Position numbers and translations under genes: made by a program. Shown here one piece after another: positions 10,512 to 55,813 of a stretch of 64,000 nucleotides of DNA. Source of the stretch: a virus. Each line of letters opens with the position of its first letter. Position 1 is the first letter of the stretch. The notes below the pieces were generated by a model. That model searched no databases and was not told the DNA's origin. It saw only the letters and a list, made by a program, of their open reading frames with translations. The stretch is taken from the IMG/VR virus record IMGVR_UViG_3300022902_000004, positions 62,268 to 126,267 of that record. The stretch is one strand, 5' to 3'.

Positions 10512-10748
10512 TTAGTACCCACCAGGACCGTAGCCGACGCCGTCAAGTTCGTCAAACGATTCTTGCACGATTCTCATGCATTCTGTTTTTAGTTGCTGTA
10601 TTGGTGTGCCATACCCTACTTCTTCTTCTTTTGCCGCAATATAATCATTGATTGCCTCAAATAGCGTAACATCAGCTGGGCTGAAACCTCCGCCGCCAAG
10701 CTGTTCTTTGATTAGCTTTCGTAGTTCTGTCTTTGAGATTTTTTTCAT
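10512..10748 (-). CDS. small protein of the QLRRLIRE N-terminal leader family
   Basis: N-terminus MKKISKTELRKLIKEQL matches the recurring leader. Confidence 0.4.
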   Translation of the reverse strand: MKKISKTELRKLIKEQLGGGGFSPADVTLFEAINDYIAAKEEEVGYGTPIQQLKTECMRIVQESFDELDGVGYGPGGY

Positions 10749-10784
10749 CGCTATGTCTCCCTCGTTATACTAAATATGGCGAGG

Positions 10785-14545: not shown

Positions 14546-15371
14546 TTTTATATTGCCTCCTTAGTGATTGAATACTTTTATCAAAAAACGAATAAGATAG
14601 CTTTTGCAAATCATCATGCATTAGTATTCTGTAGAGGATGTTTATTTCTGTTGTGTAGCGCTCAGCAGCACCTTTTTTAGCCATAAGCTTGTTATGTTTC
14701 TCATATCCTTTTACCTCTTCTAAAACTGTTTTGCCATCTAATTGCTGTATTAAAAAATCAGGCACATAATGATGTTCTGTGTCACCTAACTTATACGGAA
14801 TGCAAATTCCATGATTTTTCGTCCATGCACTTACGTTATCATCAATGTCAAGAATTTTCATTCTCAAATATTCATAAAATGAATCAAATCGATTTTGTTC
14901 ATTCGTTTTTGTTGATTTGTAAGTACCTGCGATATATCTTGGGTGTGTGGGTATTTCACCGTTAGCGATTTTCAGCGATCTTGTTAGTGACATTTGTCTT
15001 TTAGATGCTATAGAATGCTTTTTGCCTTGAAAACCGACAGAGCGACGTTTTCCATAATTCATTTTTTCTTTTGCGGCGGGCGTCATACTTTGAAGACCGA
15101 TCTTTACATTTTTGCTCATGAGCTCCTTTGATAAAGCTGTATGTTTTTTGCCATAAAAAGGATTGCCTTCGCCCATCATCATGTTTGACATTTTATTTTT
15201 CCACTCTATAGAATGTAGCCTCCCACGATTTACACAATTACGACTACAAAATAATCGCTTTCCGGCACGAGCCTGTCGACTGTTTAGCCATTTTTCTATA
15301 TGACAACTGTTACATACAAAAAGATACATCATTCGACCATTTATTTTTTTTCGTTGTAATATCATGTACAA
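14532..15371 (-). CDS. free-standing homing-endonuclease-like protein (NUMOD-like NPxYGK repeats plus C-terminal PD-(D/E)xK-like YVPDF...EEVKG)
   Basis: CxxC Zn finger (CNSCH...CSRNC), GEGNPFYGKKHT repeats, HHYVPDFLIQ...LEEVKGY. Confidence 0.55.
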   Translation of the reverse strand: MYMILQRKKINGRMMYLFVCNSCHIEKWLNSRQARAGKRLFCSRNCVNRGRLHSIEWKNKMSNMMMGEGNPFYGKKHTALSKELMSKNVKIGLQSMTPAAKEKMNYGKRRSVGFQGKKHSIASKRQMSLTRSLKIANGEIPTHPRYIAGTYKSTKTNEQNRFDSFYEYLRMKILDIDDNVSAWTKNHGICIPYKLGDTEHHYVPDFLIQQLDGKTVLEEVKGYEKHNKLMAKKGAAERYTTEINILYRILMHDDLQKLSYSFFDKSIQSLRRQYKNESK

Positions 15372-19200: not shown

Positions 19201-19820
19201 CCCATGAACTTTGTATCAGGAAACTCCTGGAAAATGATTCCGGCGGGGCGACCTGAAACGCATGCCGTAGAAACTACAAGGCCTTCGCCATGCTCCTTTA
19301 GCATTTCGTAATCGATTCGAGGGAATCTATAGAACCCTTCCATGAACGATCGCTTCACCAGCGTGAACAGGTTGGCTAATCCAGTGGCATTTTTTGCAAT
19401 GACAACGAGGTGGTGACGTCGGTTTACATTGAAACCGGAGATGTCGACACGGGATTCGCCAACGTCTTCGACCACAAGACCGGCATCACTTCCGTCACCG
19501 GTTTGAGCTGTTCCCTTCTTTTTGGCGTCTTTCATAAGCGCTTTGTTTTTCGTCCACTCTTTGATAGAAGGAACGAAGTAGAATTCGACGCCGTAGATTT
19601 GACGGTATTTTTGGCCCTTCTTTTTTAGTTTCTTAGCGTGCGCGTGAGCATGTGCGAGACCGTTTCCGTTTCCGTGATCCGTTAGTGCCCAGCCATCAAG
19701 TTCATTCGATAAGCAGAAGTCGATATGCTGGTGGGGTTGCCCGAGTCCATCATACGCGCTGAACGTCGAATGAGAATGTATCGACACAAATCGATCCGGA
19801 GGAGTAAGAATACCTGTCAT
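16257..19820 (-). CDS. dnaE: DNA polymerase III alpha subunit (DnaE-type replicative polymerase, with PHP domain)
   Basis: The N-terminal PHP domain is FVSIHSHSTFSAYDG...DHGNGNG, and the palm is GAGRGSGAGSLVNYLLGITHVDP. The single continuous 1187 aa ORF shows no intein-sized insertion. Confidence 0.9.
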   Translation of the reverse strand: MTGILTPPDRFVSIHSHSTFSAYDGLGQPHQHIDFCLSNELDGWALTDHGNGNGLAHAHAHAKKLKKKGQKYRQIYGVEFYFVPSIKEWTKNKALMKDAKKKGTAQTGDGSDAGLVVEDVGESRVDISGFNVNRRHHLVVIAKNATGLANLFTLVKRSFMEGFYRFPRIDYEMLKEHGEGLVVSTACVSGRPAGIIFQEFPDTKFMGLKPELVDDANLRGKIVGNIENMIDRFTDCVGVDNFFLELQFNDLGAQDLTNRCVLDAAKKTGTRLISTADSHFPGPDLWEAREIYRNLLPGRMKVGEEIKLPEREEMKTMLYPKNAKQMWDEYLKCRDKYDWYEGTEDLVRGSIENGHDVAWQMCDEVWFDTTAKLPSFDRPDKSAFDQLRDNVKQALVDEGLSKDKVYVARALSELSDIKFLGFENYFLTLQKVMHLAEQKTLMGAGRGSGAGSLVNYLLGITHVDPIPHGLLWGRFLGRHRVGWPDIDVDAGDRDELIFAARELFGDDAVIPVSNFNTLKLKSLVKDVSKFFGVPFTEVNAVTGPLEKEVERKSRDPNMEKSMFVLKHDDCMKYSKAYKAFMEKYPDVEHNIKALFMMNRSVGRHAGGVLICPELEKSMPLIKVRGELQTPWTEGVNIRNLEENGFLKFDFLGLKQMKMVENCIRRILKKETGKAPTFADIKRFYDEKLNCRYVDPDDQSVFDNVYKKGKWPGIFQFTSSGARKFCKDAQVNNVTELAAVTAIYRPGPLKANVHRDYVKAKANPAAQVYDHPVIKEVLEETCGFIVFQESFMLLAVKLAGFTEGDSDKMRKTLVKKDLTSLGKKSSEKEALEKKFVDGCVEKSGMNRKKAQDLFDKIAYFSLYGFNKSHAIAYAIDSYYGAWLMTHYEKEWLATVLETENGSPKGLSRALAEIKEMGHAIAKVDVNYSDFEWTFAEAANAFVPPMAAVKGIGKVAMREIINERPFKTLDEMFFDENGNWKLSKANKTALKALCKIEAMDSLEDIHNGSVLNYRQLLFALTDDKNYIKLKRGNLGMTAAAIKKANKLGEVPPLFLETELARFADISDWTRAEKVEMSYDLTSAANTELLFPPKLMAHLKSKGIPKLHDIPQGHEGIGWMCIETIQRKKTKNGKPFMRCRVIDDESRIAWLRVWGKEKIKVEPYTLWLTYTKHDADWGHSTASYKMKQIL

Positions 19821-20728
19821 TTAGATTCCCAGTGTTGTATTGTGGATGAGTATCGTCCACAAAGATCATTATATTCAGTCTCGCCAATTATTTCAATTTT
19901 TACTTCAGGGTACTGTGCTTCGAACTCAGCAAACTTTTCCTTCGCTCGGGGTGTCCACCAGCCCTTCACCTCATAGTACAAATCGCCTACCTTGAAGTCC
20001 GGCGTGTATGTTCGGCCGCTTTCCAGCACGAAACTATCTGGTTCGTATTCGAACACTTTTCCTTCGTGAAGCAGGTAGCGTGCAAAATTGGCTTCCCAGC
20101 AACTACGAACATAAAAGCCCAAATCATCCCGAGTACCGCCTCTACCGAAAAACGAATGCTTGTTCCTTCCTTCACGAACTCGCTTTGCTGCCGCGATTCG
20201 CATGTTTCGTTTTGTTTTCTCGGAGTGCTTGAAGTTCTTCAGCCTTTCGCTGGTGAGTTTTCGAGCCTCAGGTGTTTTCATCCAATGCTCAACGCCGTGG
20301 TTATCAATGTACCCCTGCTTCACTTTTTCACGGAACTCGTCAGTTTTCCATCTTGCGGCTAGTTCCCGGGACATTCTTGCTTTCGTTTCATCTGGTATTT
20401 GATAGCCGCCGGCTTCACGAATCGTTTTCATCGAAGCAACCATCTTCGCGTTCTGTTCGTCAGTCCGGGTATAGCTTCCATTTGCCATTCTGGTGGCCAC
20501 CATTCCGCTCTGGACGCACGGAAAACATTTGGACACCTGTTTCTTTTTGCTGGTGTCTTGGAACGTTCCAGAGCAAACCAGGCACACCTTCTCAGTCGGT
20601 GGATGTTTCGTGTGCCTGGTTTTGTTTCTGAGCTTGTACCCGCAGGTCTTTCCGCAGGTTTTCACTGTTCCGTTTTTCGTTTCAAATTTGCACTCGCAAA
20701 CTTGGCATGTTTTGGTGTGTATCTTCAT
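19817..20728 (-). CDS. free-standing homing-endonuclease-like protein (C4 Zn finger plus C-terminal PD-(D/E)xK-like)
   Basis: CQVCECKF...CGKTCGYK, and the C-terminal TYTPDFKVGDLYYEVKGWW. Its stop overlaps the dnaE start (ATGA). Confidence 0.55.
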   Translation of the reverse strand: MKIHTKTCQVCECKFETKNGTVKTCGKTCGYKLRNKTRHTKHPPTEKVCLVCSGTFQDTSKKKQVSKCFPCVQSGMVATRMANGSYTRTDEQNAKMVASMKTIREAGGYQIPDETKARMSRELAARWKTDEFREKVKQGYIDNHGVEHWMKTPEARKLTSERLKNFKHSEKTKRNMRIAAAKRVREGRNKHSFFGRGGTRDDLGFYVRSCWEANFARYLLHEGKVFEYEPDSFVLESGRTYTPDFKVGDLYYEVKGWWTPRAKEKFAEFEAQYPEVKIEIIGETEYNDLCGRYSSTIQHWESK

Positions 20729-22217: not shown

Positions 22218-22248
22218 CTTTTGTGCGAGCTACACGATATTTAGTGGT

Positions 22249-23178
22249 ATGATACACACATTGCGTCAATTGGTCCGTGAAACATTACTTGCTGAGAAGC
22301 GTATGCAGCCCGTTGGTGGGGAACACTTGGTAAAACGATTGAATCTAGAAATCAAGAAACTTTTATCTGAACCTGACATAAAAAATGAAATGAAAGCAAA
22401 ACTGCGCGGATCGACAGGTCTTCGTGACGATGACAAACTAGAAAAATTTGTCCATGATGACATTTCGAATGCGTCACACATCGCACAACTCCATCGAAGC
22501 TCAGGATACGTCGTTATAGAGTTTTATATTTCTCAATTTTTGAACTCGGGACCAATTAGAACGATGGCCGAAAAACGTGCAGACGACATAATTCGAAAAA
22601 CATCTAAAAACTATGGATGGTCTGTTCTTTCTGCAAACCATCGAGCACCCCCAGCCAGAGAGCTTCGTTATAACCTAGAAAGAAACTATGGGAATCGTAT
22701 AAGCGAAACAGAGGAGGTGTTATATCACGTGACGCGGTCACGTGACGTAGAAAGGATCCTGCGACAAGGGCTCACCCCTCGTCAAGCATCACACGAAACC
22801 GAAGAAGATAAACAAAACGACAGAGATTCAGGAGAACAACTGCAACAAGGGCGACAATATTCGCCCCGGGTGTACGTCACACCAAGCCTTGAGCTGGCAG
22901 ACGAGCTCTCCTTTTCATTTCAGCAGGATGGTTCAGACATGGGCGAGTACGATTATGAGGACTATACGTTTCTTAGAATTGACACGAGCAAATTGTTGCC
23001 TGGAACGAAATTTTATGAAGATTCAGAATTCGCCACGTCGCGTTACAAAGGCCAGTCATTCTGGACGTATTCTAGAATCCCAGCGGTGGCACTTTCAGTT
23101 GATATCGAAAGCCTCGCCGGCTACAAAAAATACCTGCGTGAGGTTGAGGCAGCAGCGCATGAAGACCCATGGTACTAA
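22249..23178 (+). CDS. Tpt1/KptA-like (RNA 2'-phosphotransferase / ADP-ribosyltransferase fold) protein, paralog 1, with conserved N-terminal leader
   Basis: The C-domain EVLYHVTRSRDVERILRQGLTPRQ...RVYVTPSLELADE resembles KptA [34 protein letters not shown]. The N-terminal leader is TLRQLVRETLLAEKRM. Confidence 0.45.
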   Translation: MIHTLRQLVRETLLAEKRMQPVGGEHLVKRLNLEIKKLLSEPDIKNEMKAKLRGSTGLRDDDKLEKFVHDDISNASHIAQLHRSSGYVVIEFYISQFLNSGPIRTMAEKRADDIIRKTSKNYGWSVLSANHRAPPARELRYNLERNYGNRISETEEVLYHVTRSRDVERILRQGLTPRQASHETEEDKQNDRDSGEQLQQGRQYSPRVYVTPSLELADELSFSFQQDGSDMGEYDYEDYTFLRIDTSKLLPGTKFYEDSEFATSRYKGQSFWTYSRIPAVALSVDIESLAGYKKYLREVEAAAHEDPWY

Positions 23179-24119
23179 ATAGTATGCATATGATATTTAA
23201 TGGTATGCCTAGCACATTACGCCAATTAGTCCGTGAAACACTGCTCGCTGAGCGACGCATGCAGCCCATCGGAGCAGAACATCTGGTGAAACGGTTAAAT
23301 GTAGAGTTCGGCAAAATCCTAAACTCACCTGCTGTTTTGAAACAAATGAGGAATGATGCCATTGCATCAATTGGCGAGAAAGGTGATCACACCGCAATCG
23401 ATGAAATTGTCGCATTAAAAATTAAGGAAAATTCAGATCCAGTCGGAAGCCACATTGACGACGCCGGCTACATCAACGTCATCATTCGTGTTGATCGCAT
23501 TTTAGCCGACGGCCCATTCATGGATTCATTTGAAAAAAACGTCGCCGAAATGTTCAAAACAACAGTTGGGAATTATGGCTGGTCGATACAGTCACTATCT
23601 CGTTCTTGGCATTCCCGTTGGATGATGTACGTGATAGAACGAAACTATGGCGACCAACAGCTCAATATGTCAAAAAAAATATACCATTTGGCGCGGTCAC
23701 AGGACGTAAAGAAAATCCTGAAAATGGGATTAATTCCGAAAAGACCATTGCAACTCGGGAATCATGATGAAGACTCAGAACATCTCGAGGTGGGTCGACA
23801 GTACGCGCCACGCGTTTATGTCACGACAAGCCGTAAACTAGGGAAAGAGCTTGTCAGTTTGTTCAGTGAGGCTGGTGGCTATAAAGGATCAGACAATATG
23901 GAGCATTATACTTTGCTCAAGATCAAAGGCCGGAAACTTTTACATGGCACTAAGTTTTATGCTGATGCAGAATTTGTATACAGCGATAAATGGAATGATC
24001 GCTCATTTTGGACGTACTCAAGAATTCCTCCGGAAGCAATCTCAATCGACAAAAAATGGCTCGCGGAATACCAAGAGTTTATGTCCCGTGATGATGATGA
24101 CGACCCAAGCTGGCCCTAA
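23169..24119 (+). CDS. Tpt1/KptA-like protein, paralog 2 (tandem duplicate)
   Basis: IYHLARSQDVKKILKMGLIPKR...RVYVTTS, and the N-terminus STLRQLVRETLLAERRMQPIG. There is nucleotide-level identity to paralog 1 over the leader (CAATTAGTCCGTGAAACACTGCTCGCTGAG). Confidence 0.45.
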   Translation: MVLNSMHMIFNGMPSTLRQLVRETLLAERRMQPIGAEHLVKRLNVEFGKILNSPAVLKQMRNDAIASIGEKGDHTAIDEIVALKIKENSDPVGSHIDDAGYINVIIRVDRILADGPFMDSFEKNVAEMFKTTVGNYGWSIQSLSRSWHSRWMMYVIERNYGDQQLNMSKKIYHLARSQDVKKILKMGLIPKRPLQLGNHDEDSEHLEVGRQYAPRVYVTTSRKLGKELVSLFSEAGGYKGSDNMEHYTLLKIKGRKLLHGTKFYADAEFVYSDKWNDRSFWTYSRIPPEAISIDKKWLAEYQEFMSRDDDDDPSWP

Positions 24120-24454: not shown

Positions 24455-25306
24455 CTAAAAGTTTCCTCGCGCCCAACCTGATGCCAGTTTGTCGAGAACA
24501 AATGCAGATCCACCGAATATATCATATGCCTGCTTGAGCCATGCCGCCGGGCCGGCCAACGATGTTAATGAGGATCCAATAAGTTTGCCGACCATATCAC
24601 CCAGCATGCCAATCAACATATCAGTTAATTCATCAACGATTATGTCTTTGACGCCTTGCGCTGCAGCTCTGGTAATGTCCCCTGCTGTCATTTCATGTAT
24701 TTTTCTTAATACTGGCATAACATTTTCGGCAAGCCAACTAAATCCAAGCAGGCCGGCTGCTGCCGTCAACAATCCTTTCCACCCAGATGCCTGCATGTTA
24801 TCCCTAGCATTTTCCAATTTTGCTATAAGAGCCTTAACGATTTTTGAAACTGGTCCCATATTTAGCTCGTCCAGCCTTTTTATGAGCTTGTGCAAGTACT
24901 TCAAAATAGTCTTGGCTCTTTTCTTCATTAACTGTTGCAAACCGTTTTTGAAAGTATCAAGCTTGTCTGGATCTGTAACTGCCGCCGCCATGGCTGCTAT
25001 AACACCTTTTGCATTTCTTCCATAGGTTTTTAATGCGTTAGCCGGGACAGCGGCTTTCTGCTTGATGTTTTCAATACTGTCACCAACAAACTCAGCAGCA
25101 GATGACCACCATCCTTCAAATAGGAAATGTTCACGGAGTATGTACACTTGGAGCTTATTGTTTCCGCGAGACTCTACAAGAACATTCCGATCAATACCCA
25201 GGACACGCGTTACATATGCTTCATTAAATTGATGCTTAAGCGCTGAATCTGCGATTAGTGTTTCATTTACAAATCGCCGCAAGTTACTATTCATCGGTAC
25301 TTTCAT
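24455..25306 (-). CDS. hypothetical protein (283 aa) carrying leader-like N-terminus
   Basis: N-terminus MKVPMNSNLRRFVNETLIAD. Confidence 0.45.
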   Translation of the reverse strand: MKVPMNSNLRRFVNETLIADSALKHQFNEAYVTRVLGIDRNVLVESRGNNKLQVYILREHFLFEGWWSSAAEFVGDSIENIKQKAAVPANALKTYGRNAKGVIAAMAAAVTDPDKLDTFKNGLQQLMKKRAKTILKYLHKLIKRLDELNMGPVSKIVKALIAKLENARDNMQASGWKGLLTAAAGLLGFSWLAENVMPVLRKIHEMTAGDITRAAAQGVKDIIVDELTDMLIGMLGDMVGKLIGSSLTSLAGPAAWLKQAYDIFGGSAFVLDKLASGWARGNF

Positions 25307-25580
25307 CCTGCTTTATCTTCTTTGCAGCAGACTTTAGCAGCGGAAATATCCTGGTGATGTCATCTCCTGCATTCAAAATCGCTATAAAGAACTCGGCAAT
25401 TATATTATCTTGCAATCTGGACCTATCGCTAGTCGTCATCGCTTGCATCAGCTTTTGTTTGTTAATTTTTTGTCCTAGGCCCAATTTCGTGATGACCGAT
25501 GACAATTCATCATTTGTGTTTACTTGTTCAGTCAACGTTTTTCGAATAATATTTGTTAGCTGTCGTCTTGTGAATTTCAT
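25287..25580 (-). CDS. small protein of the leader family (97 aa)
   Basis: N-terminus MKFTRRQLTNIIRKTLTEQ. Confidence 0.35.
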   Translation of the reverse strand: MKFTRRQLTNIIRKTLTEQVNTNDELSSVITKLGLGQKINKQKLMQAMTTSDRSRLQDNIIAEFFIAILNAGDDITRIFPLLKSAAKKIKQDESTDE

Positions 25581-25610
25581 GAAAATCCTCTTTTAGCTAA
25601 ATATCCGGAG

Positions 25611-34137: not shown

Positions 34138-34235
34138 GATTCACCCCCGGTAGTTGTTCACGTTGCAGGTATTCATCCCCGGCAACATATACATTATATC
34201 ATGAGCAGGACAGTTTTACACGTTGTGGATGCAAT

Positions 34236-34562
34236 TCATCCGCATGCATAATCTGACGACCTATAATCCTCGTCACAGGTACCATAGTTACGAAGTGCCG
34301 TTTCGGCATAATCATATATGGCGTCGTCCGACATTCCGGCCTTGTCCAGGAGATACATAGCTTGCCGGTGCTGATCGTCGTACTCGTCGCCTGTGATGTT
34401 AACCTCGTTGGCGAGATGTTCGAGGGCTTCCTGGTATCCTGGATCATTATTCATCGCGGCAGGGTTCTCAGAGTGCACAACTAAAACACGATATGGACCA
34501 CTTAGTTGGTCTTCTACAGATTCTCGGATCAGTCGCCGGAGCTGGTTTTTTGTAATTTTCAT
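34236..34562 (-). CDS. leader-family small acidic protein A
   Basis: N-terminus MKITKNQLRRLIRE, then a unique acidic body. Confidence 0.45.
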   Translation of the reverse strand: MKITKNQLRRLIRESVEDQLSGPYRVLVVHSENPAAMNNDPGYQEALEHLANEVNITGDEYDDQHRQAMYLLDKAGMSDDAIYDYAETALRNYGTCDEDYRSSDYACG

Positions 34563-34951
34563 GTGGCGTTTCTCTTCGGTGTAGGTTGCTCGGTATGGAT
34601 GTGCCAGTCACGATATTCATCCGCTGACATATCATCGTCATCGTAGTCATCACGTTCGCCGGTGTAACCGAATGTGTCAACAATCCACTCAGCGTTTTCA
34701 GTCGCTGTTTCTTCATCAGCACCTGCACCTTCAAACGCGCGTGCTATGTCCATGACATGTGCGGTGTAGTCGTCGTTGGCGAACATGACAGCCAACGCCG
34801 ATGCCGCCTCTTCAGATTCCGGGGAACCCTGAGTGGCAGACATAAAGTTATATGTGTGCGTACGCTCGTCATCTTCATCATCTCCAGGCATCATATGTGG
34901 CATTGTCTGCTCTCGGATCAATCGTCGAAGCTGGTTTGGCGTGATTTTCAT
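34559..34951 (-). CDS. leader-family small acidic protein B
   Basis: N-terminus MKITPNQLRRLIRE; 4-nt overlap with A. Confidence 0.45.
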   Translation of the reverse strand: MKITPNQLRRLIREQTMPHMMPGDDEDDERTHTYNFMSATQGSPESEEAASALAVMFANDDYTAHVMDIARAFEGAGADEETATENAEWIVDTFGYTGERDDYDDDDMSADEYRDWHIHTEQPTPKRNAT

Positions 34952-34954
34952 TGT

Positions 34955-35305
34955 TTATTCCTCAAAGAATTGGTGAAAGATTTCTTCTGCCTGCCATGCG
35001 TCATCTTCATCAAAACCCATGGCCTCTGCTAGCTCCTCTAGCACACCTTCCCAAGATTGCCCCCAGGAAAGCCGACCGTCTGTTCCGACTTGACCGTAGC
35101 CCATCCCACGACCTCCGCTGAATTCGCCTTCATCTTCATGGCGCTGAAATTCTTTGACGATATAATCTACGACCTCAGGCTGAAGACTTAATTCGCGGGC
35201 TTTGGCGTGGGCCTCTTGCGGTGTCATAGCCCGGTCGGATGATGTTGTGTAGCGTGAAACTTGCTCACGAATTAGTCGACGTAGTTGGTTTTTTGTAACT
35301 TTCAT
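34955..35305 (-). CDS. leader-family small acidic protein C
   Basis: N-terminus MKVTKNQLRRLIRE. Confidence 0.45.
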   Translation of the reverse strand: MKVTKNQLRRLIREQVSRYTTSSDRAMTPQEAHAKARELSLQPEVVDYIVKEFQRHEDEGEFSGGRGMGYGQVGTDGRLSWGQSWEGVLEELAEAMGFDEDDAWQAEEIFHQFFEE

Positions 35306-35324: not shown

Positions 35325-35861
35325 CTAAATATCTGACAACTTCACAGCATGAGTTTTAATTACGAAAATCAAATATTTCATCAGTGCTGTCGCATCATCC
35401 TCAGACAATTCGACTGAAACATCACGCCAGGAAGACGACGAGAAGTTACGGCCCCCTGTATACCCAAGAACACGACCATCCTTCTTCTTAACGAGAAAGG
35501 CCTTGAGGTGGTGACTTTGTGTCAGGAACCAGGAGACATTCGGCCATGCATCGAAATGGGCATTATTCCTTGCGTCCCTCTTCTTGGATTTTGCAATGCA
35601 ATGTTCACAATCAGGAGTACAGATGATCGGGTCGCTCTCTGAGAGCAGGAAAATCACCTTCTTACCTTTATTTGACAAACCTAGAATCTTCTGGGGACGA
35701 CGATCAAAACTATACTTAGCTGCCGTGTTCTCACCGGTGTCTGAGATTCCAGCGTACATTCCATACGTCGAAATCATGATCGTTTCGGTGTCTTCCTGGG
35801 ATGCCTCCCAAAGAATTGTGTCCCAGTATTCTTGGCTGTCGGTAATCATTACTTTTTCCAC
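35325..35861 (-). CDS. hypothetical protein (178 aa), weak PLD/HKD-like segment
   Basis: HHLKAFLVKKKDGRVLGYTGGRNFS is loosely HxK..D..G.xN. It is not convincing. Confidence 0.35.
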   Translation of the reverse strand: MEKVMITDSQEYWDTILWEASQEDTETIMISTYGMYAGISDTGENTAAKYSFDRRPQKILGLSNKGKKVIFLLSESDPIICTPDCEHCIAKSKKRDARNNAHFDAWPNVSWFLTQSHHLKAFLVKKKDGRVLGYTGGRNFSSSSWRDVSVELSEDDATALMKYLIFVIKTHAVKLSDI

Positions 35862-36379
35862 GGGATTGTGCGGGCATCCTGGGTGTCGAAATCATACACG
35901 TAAACTTCGATGCCCTTGGCGATCAACTCTTCATTCACGATTTTCTCAATCTCTGACCATTTGCCGCCAGCCAGACCACAACCAATTCGAGGCATGTGAA
36001 CTGAGGCATGCATGACACCTGCATATGCAGCAACCTTTGATAAGCAGGAAGCTAAGGCATCATAACGAATCGGCGGGATGGCATCTTTCGTAAAGATGCC
36101 ATGCTGTGCAATCATGTTTACGACCGTGATTCCGTCAGATGATTCAACATATTGAACTTCGCCCAGACTCAGACGAGGCTGGCCTAGATGAGCTTCAGGA
36201 GGGTTTCCTTGATACCAGCTTCTGTACGCAGTTTCTGCAGCAGGATGTTCCTTCGATAAAGACAGGACAAATCCGCGGCCCCACCCGCCAATATCGTTGC
36301 AGATATGCGTGATTAGTTTCGTGCCTTCACCGATTGGTTTTGTGGCGTCGCCGTTGACATACTTGATTTCATTTTTCAT
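35849..36379 (-). CDS. macro domain protein, TARG1/OARD1-like (ADP-ribose / ADP-ribosyl-hydrolase family)
   Basis: GDATKPIGEGTKLITHICNDIGGWGRGFV and SVHMPRIGCGLAGGKWSEIEKIV match the TARG1 signatures (HCISEDCRMGAGIA; DLSMPRIGCGLDRLQWENV). Ends with EVYVYDFD. Confidence 0.8.
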   Translation of the reverse strand: MKNEIKYVNGDATKPIGEGTKLITHICNDIGGWGRGFVLSLSKEHPAAETAYRSWYQGNPPEAHLGQPRLSLGEVQYVESSDGITVVNMIAQHGIFTKDAIPPIRYDALASCLSKVAAYAGVMHASVHMPRIGCGLAGGKWSEIEKIVNEELIAKGIEVYVYDFDTQDARTIPWKK

Positions 36380-37267: not shown

Positions 37268-37404
37268 TTATCAGCTATTTCATAGACCTCGCCGGCGTAT
37301 AAGTCAACAACAACCCTGCCGGCTTTATTACGACCACCGATCACAAAATCCGGGCTATCAAGTCCTGTTGGATCCACAATCATGATTTTGTCACCGATTT
37401 TCAT
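37180..37404 (-). CDS. hypothetical small protein (74 aa)
   Basis: ORF; overlaps the 5' end of the preceding gene, so one of the two starts is probably internal. Confidence 0.25.
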   Translation of the reverse strand: MKIGDKIMIVDPTGLDSPDFVIGGRNKAGRVVVDLYAGEVYEIADKWDAYLRLKHGRKRPWIHKSVCVPSRKKS

Positions 37405-38669
37405 TTATCAAGCCTCCAGCAAACGAAGGTGCCGAAGCGAAGCGAACCATCCTCCGTCTCTTCCTGGTATCGACATTCTGCAGTCATGCCCAGGAAATCG
37501 TCTTTGTTATTCCAAATCTCGACACGTTGTTCGTCATCGAAACCAGAACCAATTTTCACCTCGACACCATTGTGGTCGACCCACACAGCGCCAAGTTTTC
37601 CAACATTCTTGCCGGTTCCTTCCTTGAAACCGATGACCTCAAGATCGATGTCGATGAAGGACTTCACCTTCAGCATGTCATGTGAGCGACCGAACTTGTA
37701 GACGGCGTCTGGGCTTTTGACCATGGCACCTTCGAAACCCAGCGATTCCCAATGGGCTTGATGTGATGCGATTGCATCCATTGACTTTTCAACTTCCTGT
37801 TGCTCGATGAGGAAGATGTTGTCAGAACCAACGTTGTCGAACAGTGATTCAAGCCACTCACGACGCTCCCGCATTGTTGCGACACCTTTTCGATTGTCCC
37901 ACTCTTCCAGGGTGACATAGTCGAAAATGGTCAGGTACGATTTCGAAACGTTGGCACCGGTTTGGCGACGGTATTGACGCATCAAAGCAGTGAAATCTTC
38001 ATCCATAACCTCGCCGTCGTACACACCCTCCGGCCACGTCGCCAATTGGGCGCCGATGGTATCATCGAAATTGCTGATTCGTTTACCTGAGCGGGCATAC
38101 GATTCGCATGCGCCGTCCCGTACGATTGAAAGCAACCGGATTCCATCAAGCTTTGGCTCAAGGAAAACGTTCTTCGGCATCTTCTTGGCTGTTTTCTCGT
38201 TCCACTTGTCCGCAAGCTGGACTTTGAATGTCGTGATGAGCCCGGGAAAGACCTTGTTCGTGGTCGTTCGTGCGATACCAACGGCCGATTTCTTCTGAAT
38301 CAGACGGCGCATCCAGTACTCATCTTCTGGGGTGACCTGAACCAGCACGTTGCAGATGGCGTCGCGGGCTGCGTTGCCAGTAAGCTCTCGTGCCTGGCAC
38401 ATTTCCAGCACGTTGAAAAGCAGCTCCCAAATTTCGGCATCGGTCCGTGGGTGTTTCACGTCAATGCGAAGGTTAATCTTCGGAACCTTCTTGACCCAGA
38501 ATTGAATCGACTGGTCAAGGCTCAGCTTCAAAGCACGCTTCAGTGTCTCGTTGTCGCCGTTGGCTCGTAGAATGTCCAGTTTGGCATTTGTGCCTTTGGT
38601 TTCATTCACTGCATTCAAAATATCTGTAACACGCATTAGTTGACCTCTTTGTATCGTCCCCGGGAACAT
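37401..38669 (-). CDS. ATP-dependent DNA ligase
   Basis: Adenylation motif I is FLEPKLDGIRLL (KxDG). The nucleotidyltransferase is followed by an OB-domain, and the protein is 422 aa long. Confidence 0.85.
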   Translation of the reverse strand: MFPGTIQRGQLMRVTDILNAVNETKGTNAKLDILRANGDNETLKRALKLSLDQSIQFWVKKVPKINLRIDVKHPRTDAEIWELLFNVLEMCQARELTGNAARDAICNVLVQVTPEDEYWMRRLIQKKSAVGIARTTTNKVFPGLITTFKVQLADKWNEKTAKKMPKNVFLEPKLDGIRLLSIVRDGACESYARSGKRISNFDDTIGAQLATWPEGVYDGEVMDEDFTALMRQYRRQTGANVSKSYLTIFDYVTLEEWDNRKGVATMRERREWLESLFDNVGSDNIFLIEQQEVEKSMDAIASHQAHWESLGFEGAMVKSPDAVYKFGRSHDMLKVKSFIDIDLEVIGFKEGTGKNVGKLGAVWVDHNGVEVKIGSGFDDEQRVEIWNNKDDFLGMTAECRYQEETEDGSLRFGTFVCWRLDK

Positions 38670-40049: not shown

Positions 40050-40673
40050 TTACTTATCCTCGTCGCAGTTGTGAAACTCGAAGTTGACATCGACGCTAAC
40101 TGTCATTTTTGGGATGCAGATATGGTTTGCAAGGTTGTGCTTCTTAGCCTCTTTCGGCGTGAAGAACCAGTCTGCACCTCGTTTCTTCCTGCTAAGCTTC
40201 TTGAAGTAATCGTCCTTTTGACCGCAGTTTCGTGACATCATGGTGTACAGCATCTTATCAAGGCGTTTGGCTTCTTTCGTGCTAACTTTCATTTCTTCAA
40301 TCTTGCCGACGGCCCATGACGAAACATCATGAATCAAATATGTCGCATCAGGTGAGCAAAATCGCATGCCTTCAGCCCCACACGATGCCAAAGCGGTGCC
40401 GCATGACATCGCCTTTCCAAGCACGATTGTCGCGACGGGCACCTCAGAGGCTTTTATCGTCGAGACCATTGATGTCAGCGAATATACTGCCCCACCGTAG
40501 CTATCAATCACGACAGGGATGACAGGCTGACCGGTCAACTGTGCTTTCCCCATATCCTCGGAGAACTTCTTGGCTGCTTCCTCATTGAACTTGTTGACAT
40601 ACACAATCACGGGCTCATTCTTGAGAACCGTCTCTGATTTCAGCAAATTACTCACTACTTTTTTTACGAACAT
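40050..40673 (-). CDS. ClpP-family serine protease (S14/S49-like; candidate prohead protease)
   Basis: IPVVIDSYGGAVYSLTSMVSTIKASEVPVATIVLGKAMSCGTALASCGAEGMRFCSPDATYLIHD aligns with ClpP [48 protein letters not shown]...RFCLPNSRVMIHQ. The catalytic Ser (MSCG) and His (LIHD) are present. Confidence 0.75.
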   Translation of the reverse strand: MFVKKVVSNLLKSETVLKNEPVIVYVNKFNEEAAKKFSEDMGKAQLTGQPVIPVVIDSYGGAVYSLTSMVSTIKASEVPVATIVLGKAMSCGTALASCGAEGMRFCSPDATYLIHDVSSWAVGKIEEMKVSTKEAKRLDKMLYTMMSRNCGQKDDYFKKLSRKKRGADWFFTPKEAKKHNLANHICIPKMTVSVDVNFEFHNCDEDK

Positions 40674-45545: not shown

Positions 45546-45793
45546 TCTTGGGTATACACGATATGTTTGCCGAATTGCACATCTTCTTTGCTGTTTTTAT
45601 TGATAGAAACCTGTGCGATTTTTGTTACAAGCTCCCCGGTGGGTGTTTGCTCAACGAAGACATATTCCTCCATCATACCAGGCCGGCACTCGGGACTTTG
45701 TTGCCAGGATCCCGGTAGAATGCCTGGCGTTGGTGGCGTCATAGTTTGCAAAACCTTGACCGCTTGGTCAAATCGTTCTTGTGTCAATAACAT
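45542..45793 (-). CDS. hypothetical small protein (83 aa)
   Basis: 4-nt overlap. Confidence 0.3.
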   Translation of the reverse strand: MLLTQERFDQAVKVLQTMTPPTPGILPGSWQQSPECRPGMMEEYVFVEQTPTGELVTKIAQVSINKNSKEDVQFGKHIVYTQE

Positions 45794-46772
45794 TCTTTAT
45801 TTCCTGTCGTTTCATTTCGATGTCGTCTGATTCCCAAACCACTATAACAGTGTATCCCATTCGTCGTAAGTTTTCACTTCGTTTGGCATCGGCAGCCCAT
45901 TTTTCTTCAGCAAGAAACGATTGGCCCCGAAGGCGCACATTGAATTTGGCTTCATAGAGTTTCGGGTTGGCATGGACATAATCACCATTGATTTCGACAA
46001 TGACCTTTTTCTTTTCGTTGAGCTCATCAGCAAAGTAGGCGCCCACTCGTTGCTCTGATACAAAGCCCAGTTTTGTCAGGCCGAGCTCTTTCCGGAGGCG
46101 TTGGTGGAGCTTTGACAACCTGTTTTTGGAACCGGCGAACATCTTACGTAATGTCGCTGCTTTTTGCGCCGGGGTTCTGTTTTTTCTCCAGTGCGCTTGT
46201 TTCTTCCTGTATGATTCCTTTTTCCAATTTCGTTTTGAACCCTTCCCTATCGCTTTCTTCCAGGTCTCGTCCATGACGACTTCACCTTTTGCCCACCTAG
46301 CTTTCATCTTCTTGGATGAACCTTTGGCGATATGGGGAAGCTGCCCGACGTTTTTGACACCGTACTTCTTCTTCACGACCTTCTTGATTTTTTCTTGTGT
46401 TTTCTTTAGTGAAAAGCCGGCGTTCAGTCCGGAGCACCTTTGTGAGCAATACGATTTTGGTTTGCCACGGACGAAAGTCACAGCCTTCTTGCAGGACTTC
46501 TCCTTACATTTGGGCTTGCCATACTTTTTGATATAGAGTTTTTCTCTTGTCTTGAATTTGTCGTGAGTAAGAGCATATCTCTTGAACACACCCCTGGCAA
46601 ATGCAGGAGGCAGATCGCAAAGCCCACAAATGCACTTTGGTGGTTTGCCATCAAGCTTGTGCTTAATGACGTAATCGACCATTTCCATTTTGTGGGCTTT
46701 GCGGAGATGAGTAGTTAGCTGTCCGCCTAAATTATCCTTGAATCCTTTTTTGCATTCTTTGCACTTGATCAT
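45768..46772 (-). CDS. free-standing homing-endonuclease-like protein (Zn fingers, K-rich, C-terminal Vsr/DUF559-like VIVEINGDYVH)
   Basis: CKECKK...H..H, CICGLC, multiple K-rich repeats, the C-terminal FADEL...VIVEINGDYVHANP. It sits next to the RNR gene. Confidence 0.5.
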   Translation of the reverse strand: MIKCKECKKGFKDNLGGQLTTHLRKAHKMEMVDYVIKHKLDGKPPKCICGLCDLPPAFARGVFKRYALTHDKFKTREKLYIKKYGKPKCKEKSCKKAVTFVRGKPKSYCSQRCSGLNAGFSLKKTQEKIKKVVKKKYGVKNVGQLPHIAKGSSKKMKARWAKGEVVMDETWKKAIGKGSKRNWKKESYRKKQAHWRKNRTPAQKAATLRKMFAGSKNRLSKLHQRLRKELGLTKLGFVSEQRVGAYFADELNEKKKVIVEINGDYVHANPKLYEAKFNVRLRGQSFLAEEKWAADAKRSENLRRMGYTVIVVWESDDIEMKRQEIKNVIDTRTI

Positions 46773-50712: not shown

Positions 50713-50840
50713 ATTGCCTCATTTGCGCCTCACTCCGGCACGTTCGTATGCATAAATAATAGAAAAGCAAACCCGTATTTACATGTTTATTTGCGCTCGG
50801 GTCACGGGCAGATATTTATAGAGAGAAGTAAGAGGGCACC

Positions 50841-51176
50841 GTGAAAATCACAAGAAAACGACTAACAAAACTCATTCGTGAAGCCGGGCTGGCTGACATT
50901 CGGGATTCCACGCTTGATTGGTACACCGACCACAATGGCAGACAACGAATGGTTCCTGGTGGTAGAAACTACGGAAAACGCAAAACCTTTCCAACAGGTG
51001 AATTAGCTAGCTTTGTCGATGAGATCATTGAATATACAGAACCTGAGTGGGCTAATGAATCTGATGAGTCGATTGTCAAGCGGGCAATTTGGAAGGTTGT
51101 AGATGAGGAAGGTGCATCTTACGAAGATGTCAAAGAAGACGTTCGTGCCGCTGGCAAACATAAAGTCTGGTGGTAA
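50841..51176 (+). CDS. leader-family small protein (plus-strand island)
   Basis: GTG start preceded by AGAGGG; N-terminus MKITRKRLTKLIRE. Confidence 0.45.
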   Translation: MKITRKRLTKLIREAGLADIRDSTLDWYTDHNGRQRMVPGGRNYGKRKTFPTGELASFVDEIIEYTEPEWANESDESIVKRAIWKVVDEEGASYEDVKEDVRAAGKHKVWW

Positions 51177-54632: not shown

Positions 54633-54674
54633 ATATCTAAATATCCTGTTGCATTCGTTTCGACAACATCATAT

Positions 54675-55282: not shown

Positions 55283-55813
55283 TTACTTTGCGTAAATTGT
55301 TGGTTTCGAAACCAGCTTGGCGTTGGCAAACCCGATGCCTTTATCGAGGTTCAAAATGCCACCGTTCTCTGCTGCGCGTAACGTAATAACAAGATACTTC
55401 GTTGCATCCCGTTGTTTCAAGTCTTCATCGAACGAGATGCTGAATCCTTCGACGTCTTGGCCTTTCGAGTTCTTCGTACGTGTTCTTTTGAAGTCGCCGT
55501 AAGCTTCTGCCATAATCTCGTTCGACCGAATTGCTTGCTGTAAAACGGAAACAGCTTTGATTGCATCCGTCTTACCTTCCGCTTTTTGAGTTACACCGAG
55601 ATCGCGTAATAGGCCTTTTGGGTCTGCTTCTGCTCGTCCTTTCGTAAACGCAATCTCCTTGGCGAAGGTACCGCCAGTGCCATACGCACCATGCCAGTCG
55701 ACCTTGCTCTTATTGGCTTTTGCTTCATGTAGAAAATCTTCGACCGCCTCTAAAAGCATCGCATCAAGTTTGTCGTTCATTGTATCACCTTTCCGCATAT
55801 AAATATCAAACAA
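55283..55813 (-). CDS. hypothetical protein (176 aa)
   Basis: ORF in array. Confidence 0.35.
   Translation of the reverse strand: MFDIYMRKGDTMNDKLDAMLLEAVEDFLHEAKANKSKVDWHGAYGTGGTFAKEIAFTKGRAEADPKGLLRDLGVTQKAEGKTDAIKAVSVLQQAIRSNEIMAEAYGDFKRTRTKNSKGQDVEGFSISFDEDLKQRDATKYLVITLRAAENGGILNLDKGIGFANAKLVSKPTIYAK

What the first reader, a model, noticed from the sequence alone, without database searches (positions are those of the whole stretch)
34236..35305. Recurring N-terminal leader MK(I/V)T-x-x-QLRRLIRE on at least eight to ten otherwise unrelated proteins, a candidate capsid-targeting or propeptide signal
Three tandem small acidic genes begin with near-identical leaders and then diverge completely.

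- 34562: MKITKNQLRRLIRE
- 34951: MKITPNQLRRLIRE
- 35305: MKVTKNQLRRLIRE

The same about 14-residue amphipathic leader heads several other genes.

- 50841..51176 (+): MKITRKRLTKLIRE
- 25287..25580: MKFTRRQLTNIIRK
- 24455..25306: NLRRFVNETL
- 10512..10748: ELRKLIKEQL
- both Tpt1-like paralogs: TLRQLVRETLLAE

It is weakly present in the ART candidate (YLVRFINEVL) and possibly in the acidic poly-Gly protein (MNKFTLKKLVYGRL).

The leader ends in (I/V)-R-E. That fits the L/I-x-E-type cleavage consensus of the T4 prohead protease. It also fits the way T4 internal proteins and the packaged ADP-ribosyltransferase Alt share a short N-terminal capsid-targeting sequence that is cut off during head maturation. 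A ClpP-family protease is encoded at 40050..40673.

The inference is a family of proteins, including NAD-utilizing enzymes, that are packaged into the capsid and injected with the DNA.
Basis: partly seen in the sequence, partly recalled or inferred. Interest (0 to 1): 0.85.

Follow-up and report, generated by a model that had tools for sequence, protein, structure and literature searches.

The report
Shared capsid-targeting-like leader on phage proteins
Six small genes in this window start with the same 14-residue peptide, which also heads thousands of unrelated small proteins in uncultured T4-related giant phages and most likely acts as a cut-off tag that loads them into the phage head, though no virion has been examined.

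Summary
A scoring matrix trained only on other phages finds exactly six leader genes in the window: the tandem trio 34236-35305, plus 50841, 25287 and 10512. Random sequence gives 0.025 per 64 kb. The Tpt1-like paralogs, 24455, the ART candidate and the poly-Gly protein do not match.

Within the trio the leader differs at 6-7 synonymous codons against 1-2 non-synonymous ones, and the bodies are unrelated.

The leader is strictly N-terminal: 291 of 297 copies start at a start codon. It is widespread (5,027 protein clusters, no Pfam or PHROG family) and occurs in arrays of more than ten genes in 130-300 kb contigs.

The window belongs to a distant T4-like jumbo myovirus of at least 219 kb. Its closest sequenced relative (about 79% DNA identity where aligned; proteins 91-100%) has a Gp23-family capsid protein and a gp21-family (Peptidase_S77) prohead protease.

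The leader ends in [LI]-I-[KR]-E. The likely capsid-protein maturation site is QVIRE|A and the protease N-terminus carries QIKE|S. Two conserved proteins encoded just after the protease gene carry the leader too (14.7-19.7 bits; null maximum 2.5).

The capsid-targeting reading is therefore supported by context. ClpP is probably not the protease. Packaging and cleavage are untested.

The parts
34955..35305 (-). Leader gene 1 of the tandem trio (116 aa, MKVTKNQLRRLIRE + acidic body). Leader codons are 35264-35305.
   Evidence: ORF; matrix score 43.3 bits; HMM 29.8 bits.
34559..34951 (-). Leader gene 2 of the trio (130 aa, MKITPNQLRRLIRE + very acidic body, net charge -24). Leader codons are 34910-34951.
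   Evidence: 40.4 bits.
34236..34562 (-). Leader gene 3 of the trio (108 aa, MKITKNQLRRLIRE + acidic body). Leader codons are 34521-34562. It is the only one of the three with a counterpart in the closest sequenced relative's locus.
   Evidence: 47.7 bits; the relative's gene at L067 11320-11658.
50841..51176 (+). Solitary leader gene (111 aa, GTG start, V/MKITRKRLTKLIRE). It lies on the opposite strand, between the DnaB helicase and 5'-3' exonuclease genes.
   Evidence: 26.8 bits; HMM independent E 5.5e-3; also a called gene on the ENA contig.
25287..25580 (-). Leader gene (97 aa, MKFTRRQLTNIIRK), a degenerate copy with basic body, ending in K instead of E.
   Evidence: 22.4 bits; HMM only 7.8 bits; body 38% identical to a gene in marine locus L041.
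10512..10748 (-). Leader gene (78 aa, MKKISKTELRKLIKE, one residue out of register).
   Evidence: 21.6 bits; 26.5 bits for positions 2-14; HMM 9.6 bits.
35325..35333 (-). GATATTTAG motif 20 nt upstream of the first gene of the trio; candidate late promoter. Other copies: 25597-25605 (-), 22236-22244 (+), 54637-54645 (-), 27745-27753 (-). One-mismatch copies: 10770-10778 (-), 50811-50819 (+), 23192-23200 (+).
   Evidence: The same motif precedes head-module and tail genes in the closest sequenced relative, sense strand only.
22249..23178 (+). Tpt1/KptA-fold protein (309 aa) with a detached N-terminal helix, IHTLRQLVRETLLAE. This is not the canonical leader. It is a possible separate targeting or cleavage class (V-R-E), which is uncertain.
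   Evidence: AlphaFold2 mean pLDDT 79.6, residues 1-20 about 52; top 17 Foldseek PDB hits are all Tpt1/KptA; leader score -6.4 to 2.9 bits.
23205..24119 (+). Tandem paralog of the Tpt1/KptA-fold protein (41% identity) with the same N-terminal helix, MPSTLRQLVRETLLAE. The start is set at the ATG 4 nt after a GATATTTAA motif.

Best explanation
The 14-residue N-terminal peptide M-K-[IV]-T-x-x-Q-L-R-R-[LI]-I-[RK]-E is most likely the capsid-targeting propeptide of a distant T4-like lineage. In many marine relatives it extends to 22 residues and ends in a second L-L-x-E. This makes it the functional counterpart of the T4 capsid-targeting sequence (CTS) MKTYQEFIAE.

Proposed mechanism:
1. Leader genes are transcribed together with the head and tail genes.
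2. The basic amphipathic helix (+4 to +5 charge) docks the protein onto the acidic scaffolding core while the prohead assembles.
3. The gp21-family (Peptidase_S77) prohead protease cuts after the glutamate of [LI]-I-[RK]-E. This is the same kind of site it is predicted to use in the capsid protein (QVIRE|A) and in itself (QIKE|S).
4. The freed bodies stay in the head and enter the host with the DNA. They are mostly small and acidic, evolve fast, and are swapped between relatives.

Shown here: the motif, its strict N-terminal position, selection on the peptide, unrelated bodies, its wide distribution, T4-type head genes in the lineage, the matching site endings, the leader on conserved head-module proteins, and the shared upstream motif.

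Inferred: docking to the scaffold, cleavage, packaging, injection, and any anti-defence role.
For: 1. Strict N-terminal position. Of 297 unique copies of the core motif found without requiring a Met, 291 have ATG, GTG or TTG exactly at leader position 1.

2. The conserved part stops at a glutamate. Information content is 2.8-4.3 bits at positions 1-14, 0.6-1.4 bits at 16-22, and 0.3 bits after 22. 279 of 282 copies have [LIVM][LIVM]xE at positions 11-14, and 120 of 282 have a second hydrophobic-x-x-E ending at 22.

3. The lineage has T4-type head machinery. Pfam Peptidase_S77 and Gp23 match Mel-JY01 and related loci. BLAST places the same head module (large terminase, portal, S77-type protease, scaffold, capsid protein) in the window phage's closest sequenced relative, IMGVR_UViG_3300031603_000002, and in a marine contig that carries the leader (L257, L260). 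The window phage also has gp32, a T4-type baseplate protein, a sheath and a tube.

4. Matching site endings. The capsid protein reads ...ESQAGQVIRE|ASS (L257) or ...QVLKE|ASS (L260). This is about 18-28 residues before the conserved [IL]AFP[LI]VRR, or G-VALPLVRR in the Mel-JY01-like clade, and just before the point where the Pfam Gp23 model starts. The protease N-terminus reads ...DQIKE|SRE.

5. Leader on head-module proteins. The two proteins encoded just after the protease gene match leader positions 2-14 at 19.7 and 17.6 bits (L260) and 14.7 bits (L257). The maximum over 1,250 internal control windows was 2.5 bits.

6. Late-gene context. Leader genes lie between sheath and tube in the window's own phage, between tube and the baseplate-like gene in marine contigs, and after the capsid gene. 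The motif [GC]ATATTTA[GT] precedes both leader genes and structural genes, on the sense strand only.

7. Precedent in T4. A 10-residue N-terminal CTS is sufficient for packaging, and residues 8 and 10 (I-x-E) govern cleavage by gp21. Relatives of T4 carry varied CTS-bearing internal proteins (PMC9026906, PMC9958956). T4 ipII and ipIII begin MKTYQEFIAE|A.

8. The locus is plastic, like the T4 internal-protein loci. The closest sequenced relative has one leader gene where the window has three, and homology breaks inside the leader-coding bases.
Against: - There is no proteomic or biochemical evidence for any phage with this leader. The two cultured relatives examined lack it: Mel-JY01 over its whole genome and Flavobacterium phage immuto in the 41 kb around its capsid gene.
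- Hydrophobic-x-Glu is a low-information motif in charged helical proteins.
- The leader is longer, far more strongly conserved and more basic than the T4 CTS. It has no significant sequence similarity to the T4 CTS beyond the MK start and the I-x-E end.
- The cargo is strongly acidic, unlike the basic internal proteins of T4 (pI 8.9-9.5).
- In most marine copies the residue after E14 is another E, and conservation continues weakly to position 22, so the true cut site is unclear.
- Multi-unit proteins with internal leader copies are common.
- The trio lies among DNA-metabolism and accessory genes rather than in the head module.
- The S77 protease was seen in the closest sequenced relative and in related contigs, not in the window itself.
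Confidence: 0.58

Rival explanations
1. The leader is a docking helix for some other common partner: a host hub such as RNA polymerase, the ribosome or the nucleoid, or a phage hub, or a self-association module. The variable bodies would then be intracellular effectors that are never packaged, and the resemblance to protease sites would be coincidental.
For: The leader is predicted to be an amphipathic helix (H5-22 in a low-confidence model). It is conserved far more strongly than a short cleavage tag seems to need. Internal copies in multi-unit proteins stay intact. The trio lies among accessory genes. Small acidic phage proteins are often intracellular inhibitors (general knowledge).
Against: A binding helix has no need to be locked to residue 1, yet 98% of copies start at the start codon. 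It would not be expected on conserved proteins encoded next to the prohead protease gene. Nor would it be expected to end in the same motif as the capsid-protein maturation site.
Confidence: 0.2
2. The leader is an N-terminal degradation tag read by a Clp-type machine (the phage ClpP at 40050-40673 working with a host unfoldase). This would give the whole family a timed, short life.
For: A true ClpP is encoded in the window and conserved in the lineage. N-terminal ClpX recognition signals of the Met-basic-hydrophobic type are known (from my own knowledge; not checked here).
Against: Mel-JY01 keeps the ClpP homolog but has no leader genes. No ClpX, ClpA or adaptor was seen in the window. A degron does not explain the leader on head-module proteins or the matching capsid-protein site.
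Confidence: 0.07
3. The leader is an amphipathic helix that takes the proteins to the cell membrane, or the family is simply a fast-diverging set of paralogs whose first helix is structurally indispensable and has no signalling role.
For: The helix is basic and amphipathic with a hydrophobic stripe (L8, I11, I12, L15/16, L19). The tandem arrays point to duplication.
Against: The bodies fall into 140 BLAST clusters with 94 singletons, and the lengths run from 26 to 542 aa. One fold with one essential first helix is therefore unlikely. In the Tpt1-like protein the analogous N-terminal helix is detached and of low confidence. Nothing in the context points to the membrane.
Confidence: 0.08
4. The conserved element works at the nucleic-acid level, as a translation-initiation enhancer or a portable homology that lets cassettes recombine. 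The peptide would then be a by-product.
For: Homology between the window and its closest sequenced relative breaks inside the leader-coding bases, as expected if recombination uses them. The A-rich codons after the ATG are typical of efficient starts.
Against: The three leaders differ at 8-12 of 42 bases, almost all synonymous, and many different codons encode the same peptide across hundreds of copies (needed a degenerate pattern). Selection therefore acts on the amino acids. Recombination at the leader may be a side benefit.
Confidence: 0.04

Closest known systems
Phage T4 capsid-targeting sequence (CTS) of internal proteins IPI, IPII and IPIII (and the propeptide of Alt), cut by the prohead protease gp21
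   Same: - A short N-terminal peptide shared by otherwise unrelated, dispensable, fast-evolving small proteins.
- It starts MK and ends hydrophobic-x-Glu.
- The genome lineage encodes a gp21-family (Peptidase_S77) protease and a Gp23-family capsid protein.
- The loci differ between close relatives.
- A protein with an ADP-ribosyltransferase-type fold that has an N-terminal extension is present, as Alt is in T4.
   Different: - 14-22 residues instead of 10.
- Strongly basic amphipathic helix (+4 to +5), whereas MKTYQEFIAE is acidic to neutral.
- No significant sequence similarity between the two.
- Cargo is mostly acidic (88% with pI below 6), whereas the T4 internal proteins are basic.
- Family size is several to more than a dozen per genome region and thousands of clusters overall, against three or four in T4.
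- Multi-unit fusions occur.
- Packaging and cleavage are untested.
Propeptides of the inner-body and ejection proteins of phiKZ, 201phi2-1 and SPN3US, cut by gp175 or gp245 at S/A/G-x-E or A-x-E
   Same: - Jumbo myoviruses with many head proteins.
- Paralogs share identical N-terminal stretches (SPN3US gp53 and gp54: MANFVKSKLARESVE, PMC5694885).
- Cleavage follows a Glu after a short motif, and propeptides carry redundant sites.
   Different: - In those phages P3 is a small residue and the propeptides are often longer than 100 residues.
- Their proteases are only distant relatives of gp21.
- Here P3 is I, L or V as in T4, and the leader is short and nearly invariant.
Phage P1 Dar (defence against restriction) proteins, packaged in the head and injected
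   Same: Capsid-packaged proteins that enter the host with the DNA and counter host defence; incorporation depends on N-terminal regions and head-assembly partners (PMC9024508, PMC12810830, seen as search results only).
   Different: P1 uses a hierarchy of specific protein partners rather than one shared short leader. No sequence relation was found.

Membership tests
T4-type capsid-targeting sequence / gp21-processed propeptide | Located at the extreme N-terminus of the precursor | tested here: met
   291 of 297 motif copies begin at a start codon. Of the six window copies, five start at the ORF start and the 10745 hit one residue after it.
T4-type capsid-targeting sequence / gp21-processed propeptide | Ends in the protease's recognition motif (hydrophobic L/I at P3, Glu at P1) | tested here: met
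   279 of 282 copies have [LIVM][LIVM]xE at positions 11-14. In the T4 CTS, processing depends on residues 8 and 10 (PMC9026906).
T4-type capsid-targeting sequence / gp21-processed propeptide | The genome encodes a gp21-family (Peptidase_S77) prohead protease and a Gp23-family capsid protein | tested here: met
   Pfam S77 at 6e-30 and 3e-25; Gp23 at 1e-79 and 1e-76. Homologs are present in the closest sequenced relative (L257) and in a leader-bearing marine contig (L260). They were not seen inside the window itself.
T4-type capsid-targeting sequence / gp21-processed propeptide | The same kind of site is used in bona fide head proteins of the same phage | tested here: inconclusive
   Sequence only: capsid protein QVIRE|ASS, protease QIKE|SRE, head-module proteins MAKMTKASLKGLIKE. 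Actual cleavage has not been observed.
T4-type capsid-targeting sequence / gp21-processed propeptide | Sequence similarity to the T4 CTS MKTYQEFIAE | tested here: not met
   Only the MK start and the I-x-E end are shared. No alignment beyond that.
T4-type capsid-targeting sequence / gp21-processed propeptide | The proteins are present in the virion with the leader removed, and the leader is sufficient to package a reporter | not testable with these tools
   No cultured phage with the leader was found: Mel-JY01 (whole genome) and immuto (41 kb around its capsid gene) lack it. No paper contains the motif.
   The ClpP at 40050-40673 lies among accessory genes. In the cultured relative Mel-JY01 a ClpP homolog coexists with a separate S77 protease that sits between the portal and capsid genes; the closest sequenced relative (L257) and marine contig L260 have the same S77 head module.
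Tpt1/KptA RNA 2'-phosphotransferase (for 22249-23178) | Tpt1 fold | tested here: met
   The top 17 Foldseek PDB hits are all Tpt1/KptA, E 2.6e-5 to 3e-3, TM-score normalised to the target about 0.45. There is no Pfam hit at the sequence level. The catalytic residues were not checked.

The most novel reading that the evidence does not exclude
An abundant, uncultured lineage of ocean and lake T4-like jumbo phages uses one nearly invariant 14-22-residue basic helix as a universal packaging tag. With it they load a very large, rapidly turning-over set of small acidic proteins into the capsid and inject them with the DNA. These proteins may be DNA mimics or other first-strike anti-defence effectors, and the set may include Tpt1-like NAD-dependent enzymes. 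The leader arose by copying the N-terminus of a prohead core protein, and it also serves as the recombination handle that shuffles the cassettes.
Probability: 0.35. Interest if true: 0.8.

Novelty: new variant of a known kind. Interest (0 to 1): 0.66.

Why it matters
If the leader is a packaging tag, it marks a catalogue of proteins that these phages deliver into the cell at the moment of infection. That catalogue is more than 5,000 protein clusters with no known family.

Injected proteins of this kind are the class to which T4 IPI*, Alt and the P1 Dar proteins belong. They are a natural place to look for new anti-defence and host-takeover functions.

The leader would also extend the T4 capsid-targeting principle to a very different peptide, acidic cargo and much larger gene families. 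It would provide a short portable tag for loading foreign proteins into capsids.

The hypothesis can be tested directly by searching existing marine virome metaproteomes for peptides that begin just after ...I[RK]E or ...LLxE.

Tried and rejected
- Megablast of 12 kb of the window against the phage collection found no match.
- tblastn of the leader consensus and of a 78-aa member against the phage collection found no match. This is uninformative, because a 14-residue match cannot reach E of 10 or less in 2.3 Gb.
- Pfam and PHROGs on the window leader proteins, typical short members and ten long members gave no family. The only signal was a sub-threshold EF-hand hit in one protein.
- A literal search of papers for the motif found nothing, as did a search for Mel-JY01.
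- ClpP as the maturation protease is rejected, as explained in the full report.
- An HMM built on 22 leader positions did not pick up the 183-aa head-module protein (1.6 bits). The ungapped matrix on positions 2-14 did (14.7 bits). The difference comes from the extra Ala after the Met and from local-alignment penalties. I report both results.
- AlphaFold2 of a 78-aa member with 10 sequences was too uncertain to say whether the leader helix packs on the body (pLDDT 63.7, pTM 0.32).
- Window ORFs 1-10.5 kb were suspected to be the head module. They have no match to Gp23-lineage head genes. The real head module lies about 30 kb beyond the right end of the window.
- Canonical leaders are not universal in the wider lineage. 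None were found in 80 capsid-gene loci of the Mel-JY01-like clade, and only 6 of 75 sheath loci have them next to the tube gene.
Full report
**1. The observation**

The three minus-strand ORFs at 34955-35305, 34559-34951 and 34236-34562 exist. They begin MKVTKNQLRRLIRE, MKITPNQLRRLIRE and MKITKNQLRRLIRE.

To test the motif without circularity, I built a 14-position scoring matrix from 280 leaders found in other contigs, with the window phage excluded. I then scanned the six-frame translation of the window.
- Exactly six positions score at least 8 bits: 47.7, 43.3, 40.4, 26.8, 22.4 and 21.6 bits, at 34562, 35305, 34951, 50841, 25580 and 10745.
- Five start at an ORF's start codon; the 10745 hit starts one residue after the Met.
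- Forty random sequences with the same dinucleotide transitions gave 0.025 hits on average, with a best score of 9.8 bits.

Within the trio, 6-7 of the 14 leader codons differ synonymously and 1-2 non-synonymously. The bodies are no more alike than shuffled sequences. Selection therefore acts on the peptide.

These are the Tpt1-like paralogs, 24455-25306, the ART candidate at 29876 and the poly-Gly protein at 7576.

**2. How widespread it is**

- A profile of the N-terminal 45 residues, searched against the 5.8-billion-protein collection, returned 1,368 hits from 1,407 candidates. Nearly all are 42-79 aa, have no Pfam domain and come from metagenomes.
- An exhaustive HMMER search of 1.84 billion cluster representatives found 5,027 clusters at E of 0.001 or less.
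- A degenerate DNA pattern for MKITKRQLRRIIKEE hit 58 loci in about 40 IMG/VR contigs. Many are 130-293 kb, and several have more than one array per contig.
- Arrays of 11 or more tandem leader genes occur in L001, L002 and in a 308-kb contig, L007.
- From 67 loci I collected 285 unique complete proteins with a median length of 100 aa.
- The consensus is M-K-I-T-K-R-Q-L-R-R-I-I-K-E-E-K-a-[RK]-L-L-x-E.
- The bodies fall into 140 BLAST clusters, 94 of them singletons.
- Neither Pfam nor PHROGs knows the family, and no paper in the library contains the motif.

**3. Anatomy of the leader**

- Of 297 unique copies of the core motif found without requiring a Met, 291 have ATG, GTG or TTG exactly at position 1.
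- Information content is 2.8-4.3 bits at positions 1-14 and 2.7 bits at position 15. It is 0.6-1.4 bits at positions 16-22 and at background (0.3 bits) from 23 on.
- 279 of 282 copies have [LIVM][LIVM]xE at positions 11-14.
- 120 of 282 copies have a second hydrophobic-x-x-E ending at position 22.
- The leader carries +4.65 net charge on average, and 88% of bodies have a pI below 6.
- Long members are multi-unit fusions in which internal leader copies are retained, usually with their Met.

**4. What phage this is**

- The exact proteins of the window lie on a 184.5-kb ENA contig. The window overhangs that contig by 34.5 kb, so the genome is at least about 219 kb. This is an inference from the coordinates.
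- The phage shares DnaB (66% identity), a RecA-like protein (67%), ribonucleotide reductase (60%), ClpP (59%) and DnaE (38%) with the marine leader contigs.
- Gene order and 36-38% identity link it to Microcystis phage Mel-JY01.
- Precomputed Pfam hits on the ENA contig show gp32, RecA, a T4-type baseplate protein and a sheath.
- Mel-JY01 and the related loci have Pfam Peptidase_S77 (the T4 gp21 family) and Gp23.

By walking along the closest sequenced relative, IMGVR_UViG_3300031603_000002, I recovered its head module. Its proteins are 91-100% identical to those of the window phage, and its DNA about 79% identical where I aligned it. The gene order is:
1. large terminase
2. portal
3. a 280-aa protein
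4. S77-type protease
5. a 134-aa protein
6. a 183-aa protein
7. a 92-aa protein
8. a 191-aa protein
9. a 169-aa protein
10. an acidic scaffold of 583 aa
11. the capsid protein of 628 aa

The same head module, in the same order, is present in L260, which comes from one of the MKITKRQLRRIIKEE contigs. This is a distant T4-like jumbo myovirus lineage.

**5. Links between the leader and head maturation**

(a) The capsid protein N-terminus reads ...RLLESQAGQVIRE|ASSIS... in L257 and ...QVLKE|ASS... in L260. In more than 40 relatives it reads LLENQA[KR]QL[VI]xE|[AS]. The motif sits about 18-28 residues before the conserved [IL]AFP[LI]VRR (G-VALPLVRR in the Mel-JY01-like clade), and the Pfam Gp23 model starts at about residue 71. 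This corresponds to the removal of 65 residues from T4 gp23 (PMC9958956).

(b) The protease N-terminus reads ...DYTPDQIKE|SRE, and ...INE|S in relatives. T4 gp21 has LIE-9 near its N-terminus (PMC9026906).

(c) I scored leader positions 2-14 over the first 30 residues of 179 genes. Right after the canonical leader genes come the proteins encoded just after the protease gene:
- L260, 165 aa, MAKVTKKMLKGIVKE: 19.7 bits
- L260, 103 aa: 17.6 bits
- L257, 183 aa, MAKMTKASLKGLIKE: 14.7 bits

The best of 1,250 internal control windows scored 2.5 bits.

(d) Leader genes are embedded in the structural cluster.
- In the window's own phage there are two between sheath and tube.
- In the closest sequenced relative there are four at that position.
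- In the relative, one clear copy and one weaker copy follow the capsid gene.
- In marine contigs there are three to five between the tube and the T4-baseplate-like gene, a position where Mel-JY01 has none.

(e) The motif [GC]ATATTTA[GT] lies 4-30 nt upstream of leader genes at 35305, 25580, 50841 and 10748, and of the Tpt1-like genes. It also lies upstream of the 92-aa head-module gene, a neck-region gene and the tape-measure-like gene, almost always on the sense strand. ATACTTA[GA] precedes the scaffold and capsid genes. I read this as a candidate late promoter. That is an inference.

**6. Comparison with T4**

- T4 ipII and ipIII begin MKTYQEFIAE|A.
- The first 10 residues are sufficient for packaging. 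Residues 4 and 7 matter for targeting and residues 8 and 10 for cleavage.
- Related phages carry varied proteins with CTS-like starts (PMC9026906).
- The T4 core contains gp67, gp68, the internal proteins and Alt, all cut by gp21 (PMC9958956).

The present leader shares the logic: an MK start, an N-terminal position, an I-x-E end, a gp21-family protease, unrelated dispensable cargo and plastic loci. It does not share the sequence, the charge, the nature of the cargo or the scale.

Locus plasticity is seen directly. Between the gene upstream of the trio (35325-35861) and the Fpg/Nei glycosylase gene, the closest sequenced relative has one leader gene where the window has three. DNA homology stops within the leader-coding bases.

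**7. ClpP**

The ORF at 40050-40673 is a true ClpP. It lies among accessory genes. Its homolog in Mel-JY01 coexists with the S77 protease, which sits between the portal and capsid genes. I therefore reject ClpP as the maturation enzyme. An N-terminal degron read by Clp remains a weak rival.

**8. The Tpt1-like paralogs**

An AlphaFold2 model of 22249-23178 (11 sequences, mean pLDDT 79.6) matches only Tpt1/KptA structures in its top 17 PDB hits. Its first helix (residues 2-15) is detached and has a pLDDT of about 52. Its sequence, TLRQLVRETLLAE, ends in V-R-E but is not the canonical leader. The parallel with T4 Alt, a packaged ADP-ribosyltransferase, is suggestive only.

A further N-terminal pattern, RF[VI]NE[TV]L, is shared by 24455-25306, 29876-30769 and a gene after the capsid gene in the relative. 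It resembles the protease's own ...INE|S. I did not follow it up.

**9. Verdict**

The finding is real, smaller in the window than claimed, and much larger outside it. The best explanation is a T4-type capsid-targeting propeptide in a new sequence guise (confidence about 0.58). It rests on genomic context and on analogy with T4. Packaging and cleavage have not been tested, and no cultured phage with the leader is known: Mel-JY01 (whole genome) and Flavobacterium phage immuto (41 kb around its capsid gene) lack it.

Noticed in passing
window 22236-22244, 25597-25605, 27745-27753, 35325-35333, 54637-54645 (exact); L257 8509, 15287; L173 6205: The motif GATATTTAG (variants CATATTTAG, GATATTTAT, ATACTTAG) lies 4-30 nt before gene starts, almost only on the sense strand, ahead of both structural genes and leader genes. 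Several starts lie just 4 nt after it, which would give near-leaderless mRNAs. It is a candidate late promoter of this lineage.
   Followed up: partly
window 22249-23178 and 23205-24119 (+): Two tandem paralogs (41% identity) with a Tpt1/KptA (NAD-dependent RNA 2'-phosphotransferase) fold and an N-terminal helical extension of about 100 residues. Only nine homologs exist in 5.8 billion proteins, and none has a Pfam hit.
   Followed up: partly
window 40050-40673 (-); Mel-JY01 157744-158427: A ClpP homolog is conserved across the lineage in addition to the gp21-type prohead protease. Its role is unknown and no partner unfoldase was seen in the window.
   Followed up: partly
window 16257-19820 (-), 55806-56921 (-): This T4-like phage carries a DnaE-type Pol III alpha subunit (27% identity to actinophage DnaE) and a 371-aa protein with a DNA_pol_A hit. 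Its nearest cultured relative, Mel-JY01, uses a family B polymerase.
   Followed up: no
L050 3696-4952; P0138, P0144, P0148, P0154, P0234: Many predicted proteins are chains of two to four leader-plus-body units in one reading frame. The internal leaders are fully conserved and usually keep their Met. They may be polyproteins, or genes with internal starts.
   Followed up: partly
window 33684-35258 against L067 11367-11679: The closest sequenced relative has one leader gene where the window has three leader genes plus a 149-aa ORF. The homology breakpoint falls inside the leader-coding bases, so the leader may also act as a recombination handle.
   Followed up: partly
L177 5622-8789 and 8816-11899; L022 5671-8706 and 8740-11949: There are two tandem tail-sheath paralogs of about 1,000-1,070 aa in this clade. 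Mel-JY01 has a single sheath of 812 aa.
   Followed up: no
L257 3058-6120 against L260 2832-4760: The portal gene is 1,020 aa in the closest sequenced relative and 642 aa in a marine relative. This suggests an intein or other insertion.
   Followed up: no
window 12673-13539, 14532-15371, 19817-20728, 26916-27773, 32224-33021, 45768-46772: The window has many genes that begin with Cys-rich, zinc-ribbon-like N-termini. One, 32224-33021, is a GIY-YIG/NUMOD3 homing endonuclease according to a precomputed Pfam hit. Mobile endonuclease genes appear to be scattered through the window.
   Followed up: no
window 24455-25306 (-), 29876-30769 (+); L256 4941-5558: A second N-terminal pattern, x-R-F-[VI]-N-E-[TV]-L, is shared by three otherwise different proteins. 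It resembles the ...INE|S stretch at the N-terminus of the prohead protease in relatives, and may be a second class of targeting or cleavage leader.
   Followed up: no
L019 3879 (u85), L034 6181 (u158), L062 1618 (u279), L001 8646: One sub-family of leader proteins ends in a basic tail followed by ...P-P-x-Y-D or ...S-Y-Y-D. Several short members end in ...G-Y. This may be a conserved C-terminal signal.
   Followed up: no
L014 1455-3329, L028 5087-6961: Leader-bearing jumbo contigs encode a full-length DnaK/Hsp70-like protein (MGKVIGIDLGTTNSCVA...).
   Followed up: no
window 35849-36379 (-), 33024-33671 (-), 37401-38669 (-): Neighbours of the trio are a weak macro-domain-like protein (Pfam E 0.038, below threshold), an Fpg/Nei-type DNA glycosylase and an ATP-dependent DNA ligase.
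   Followed up: partly
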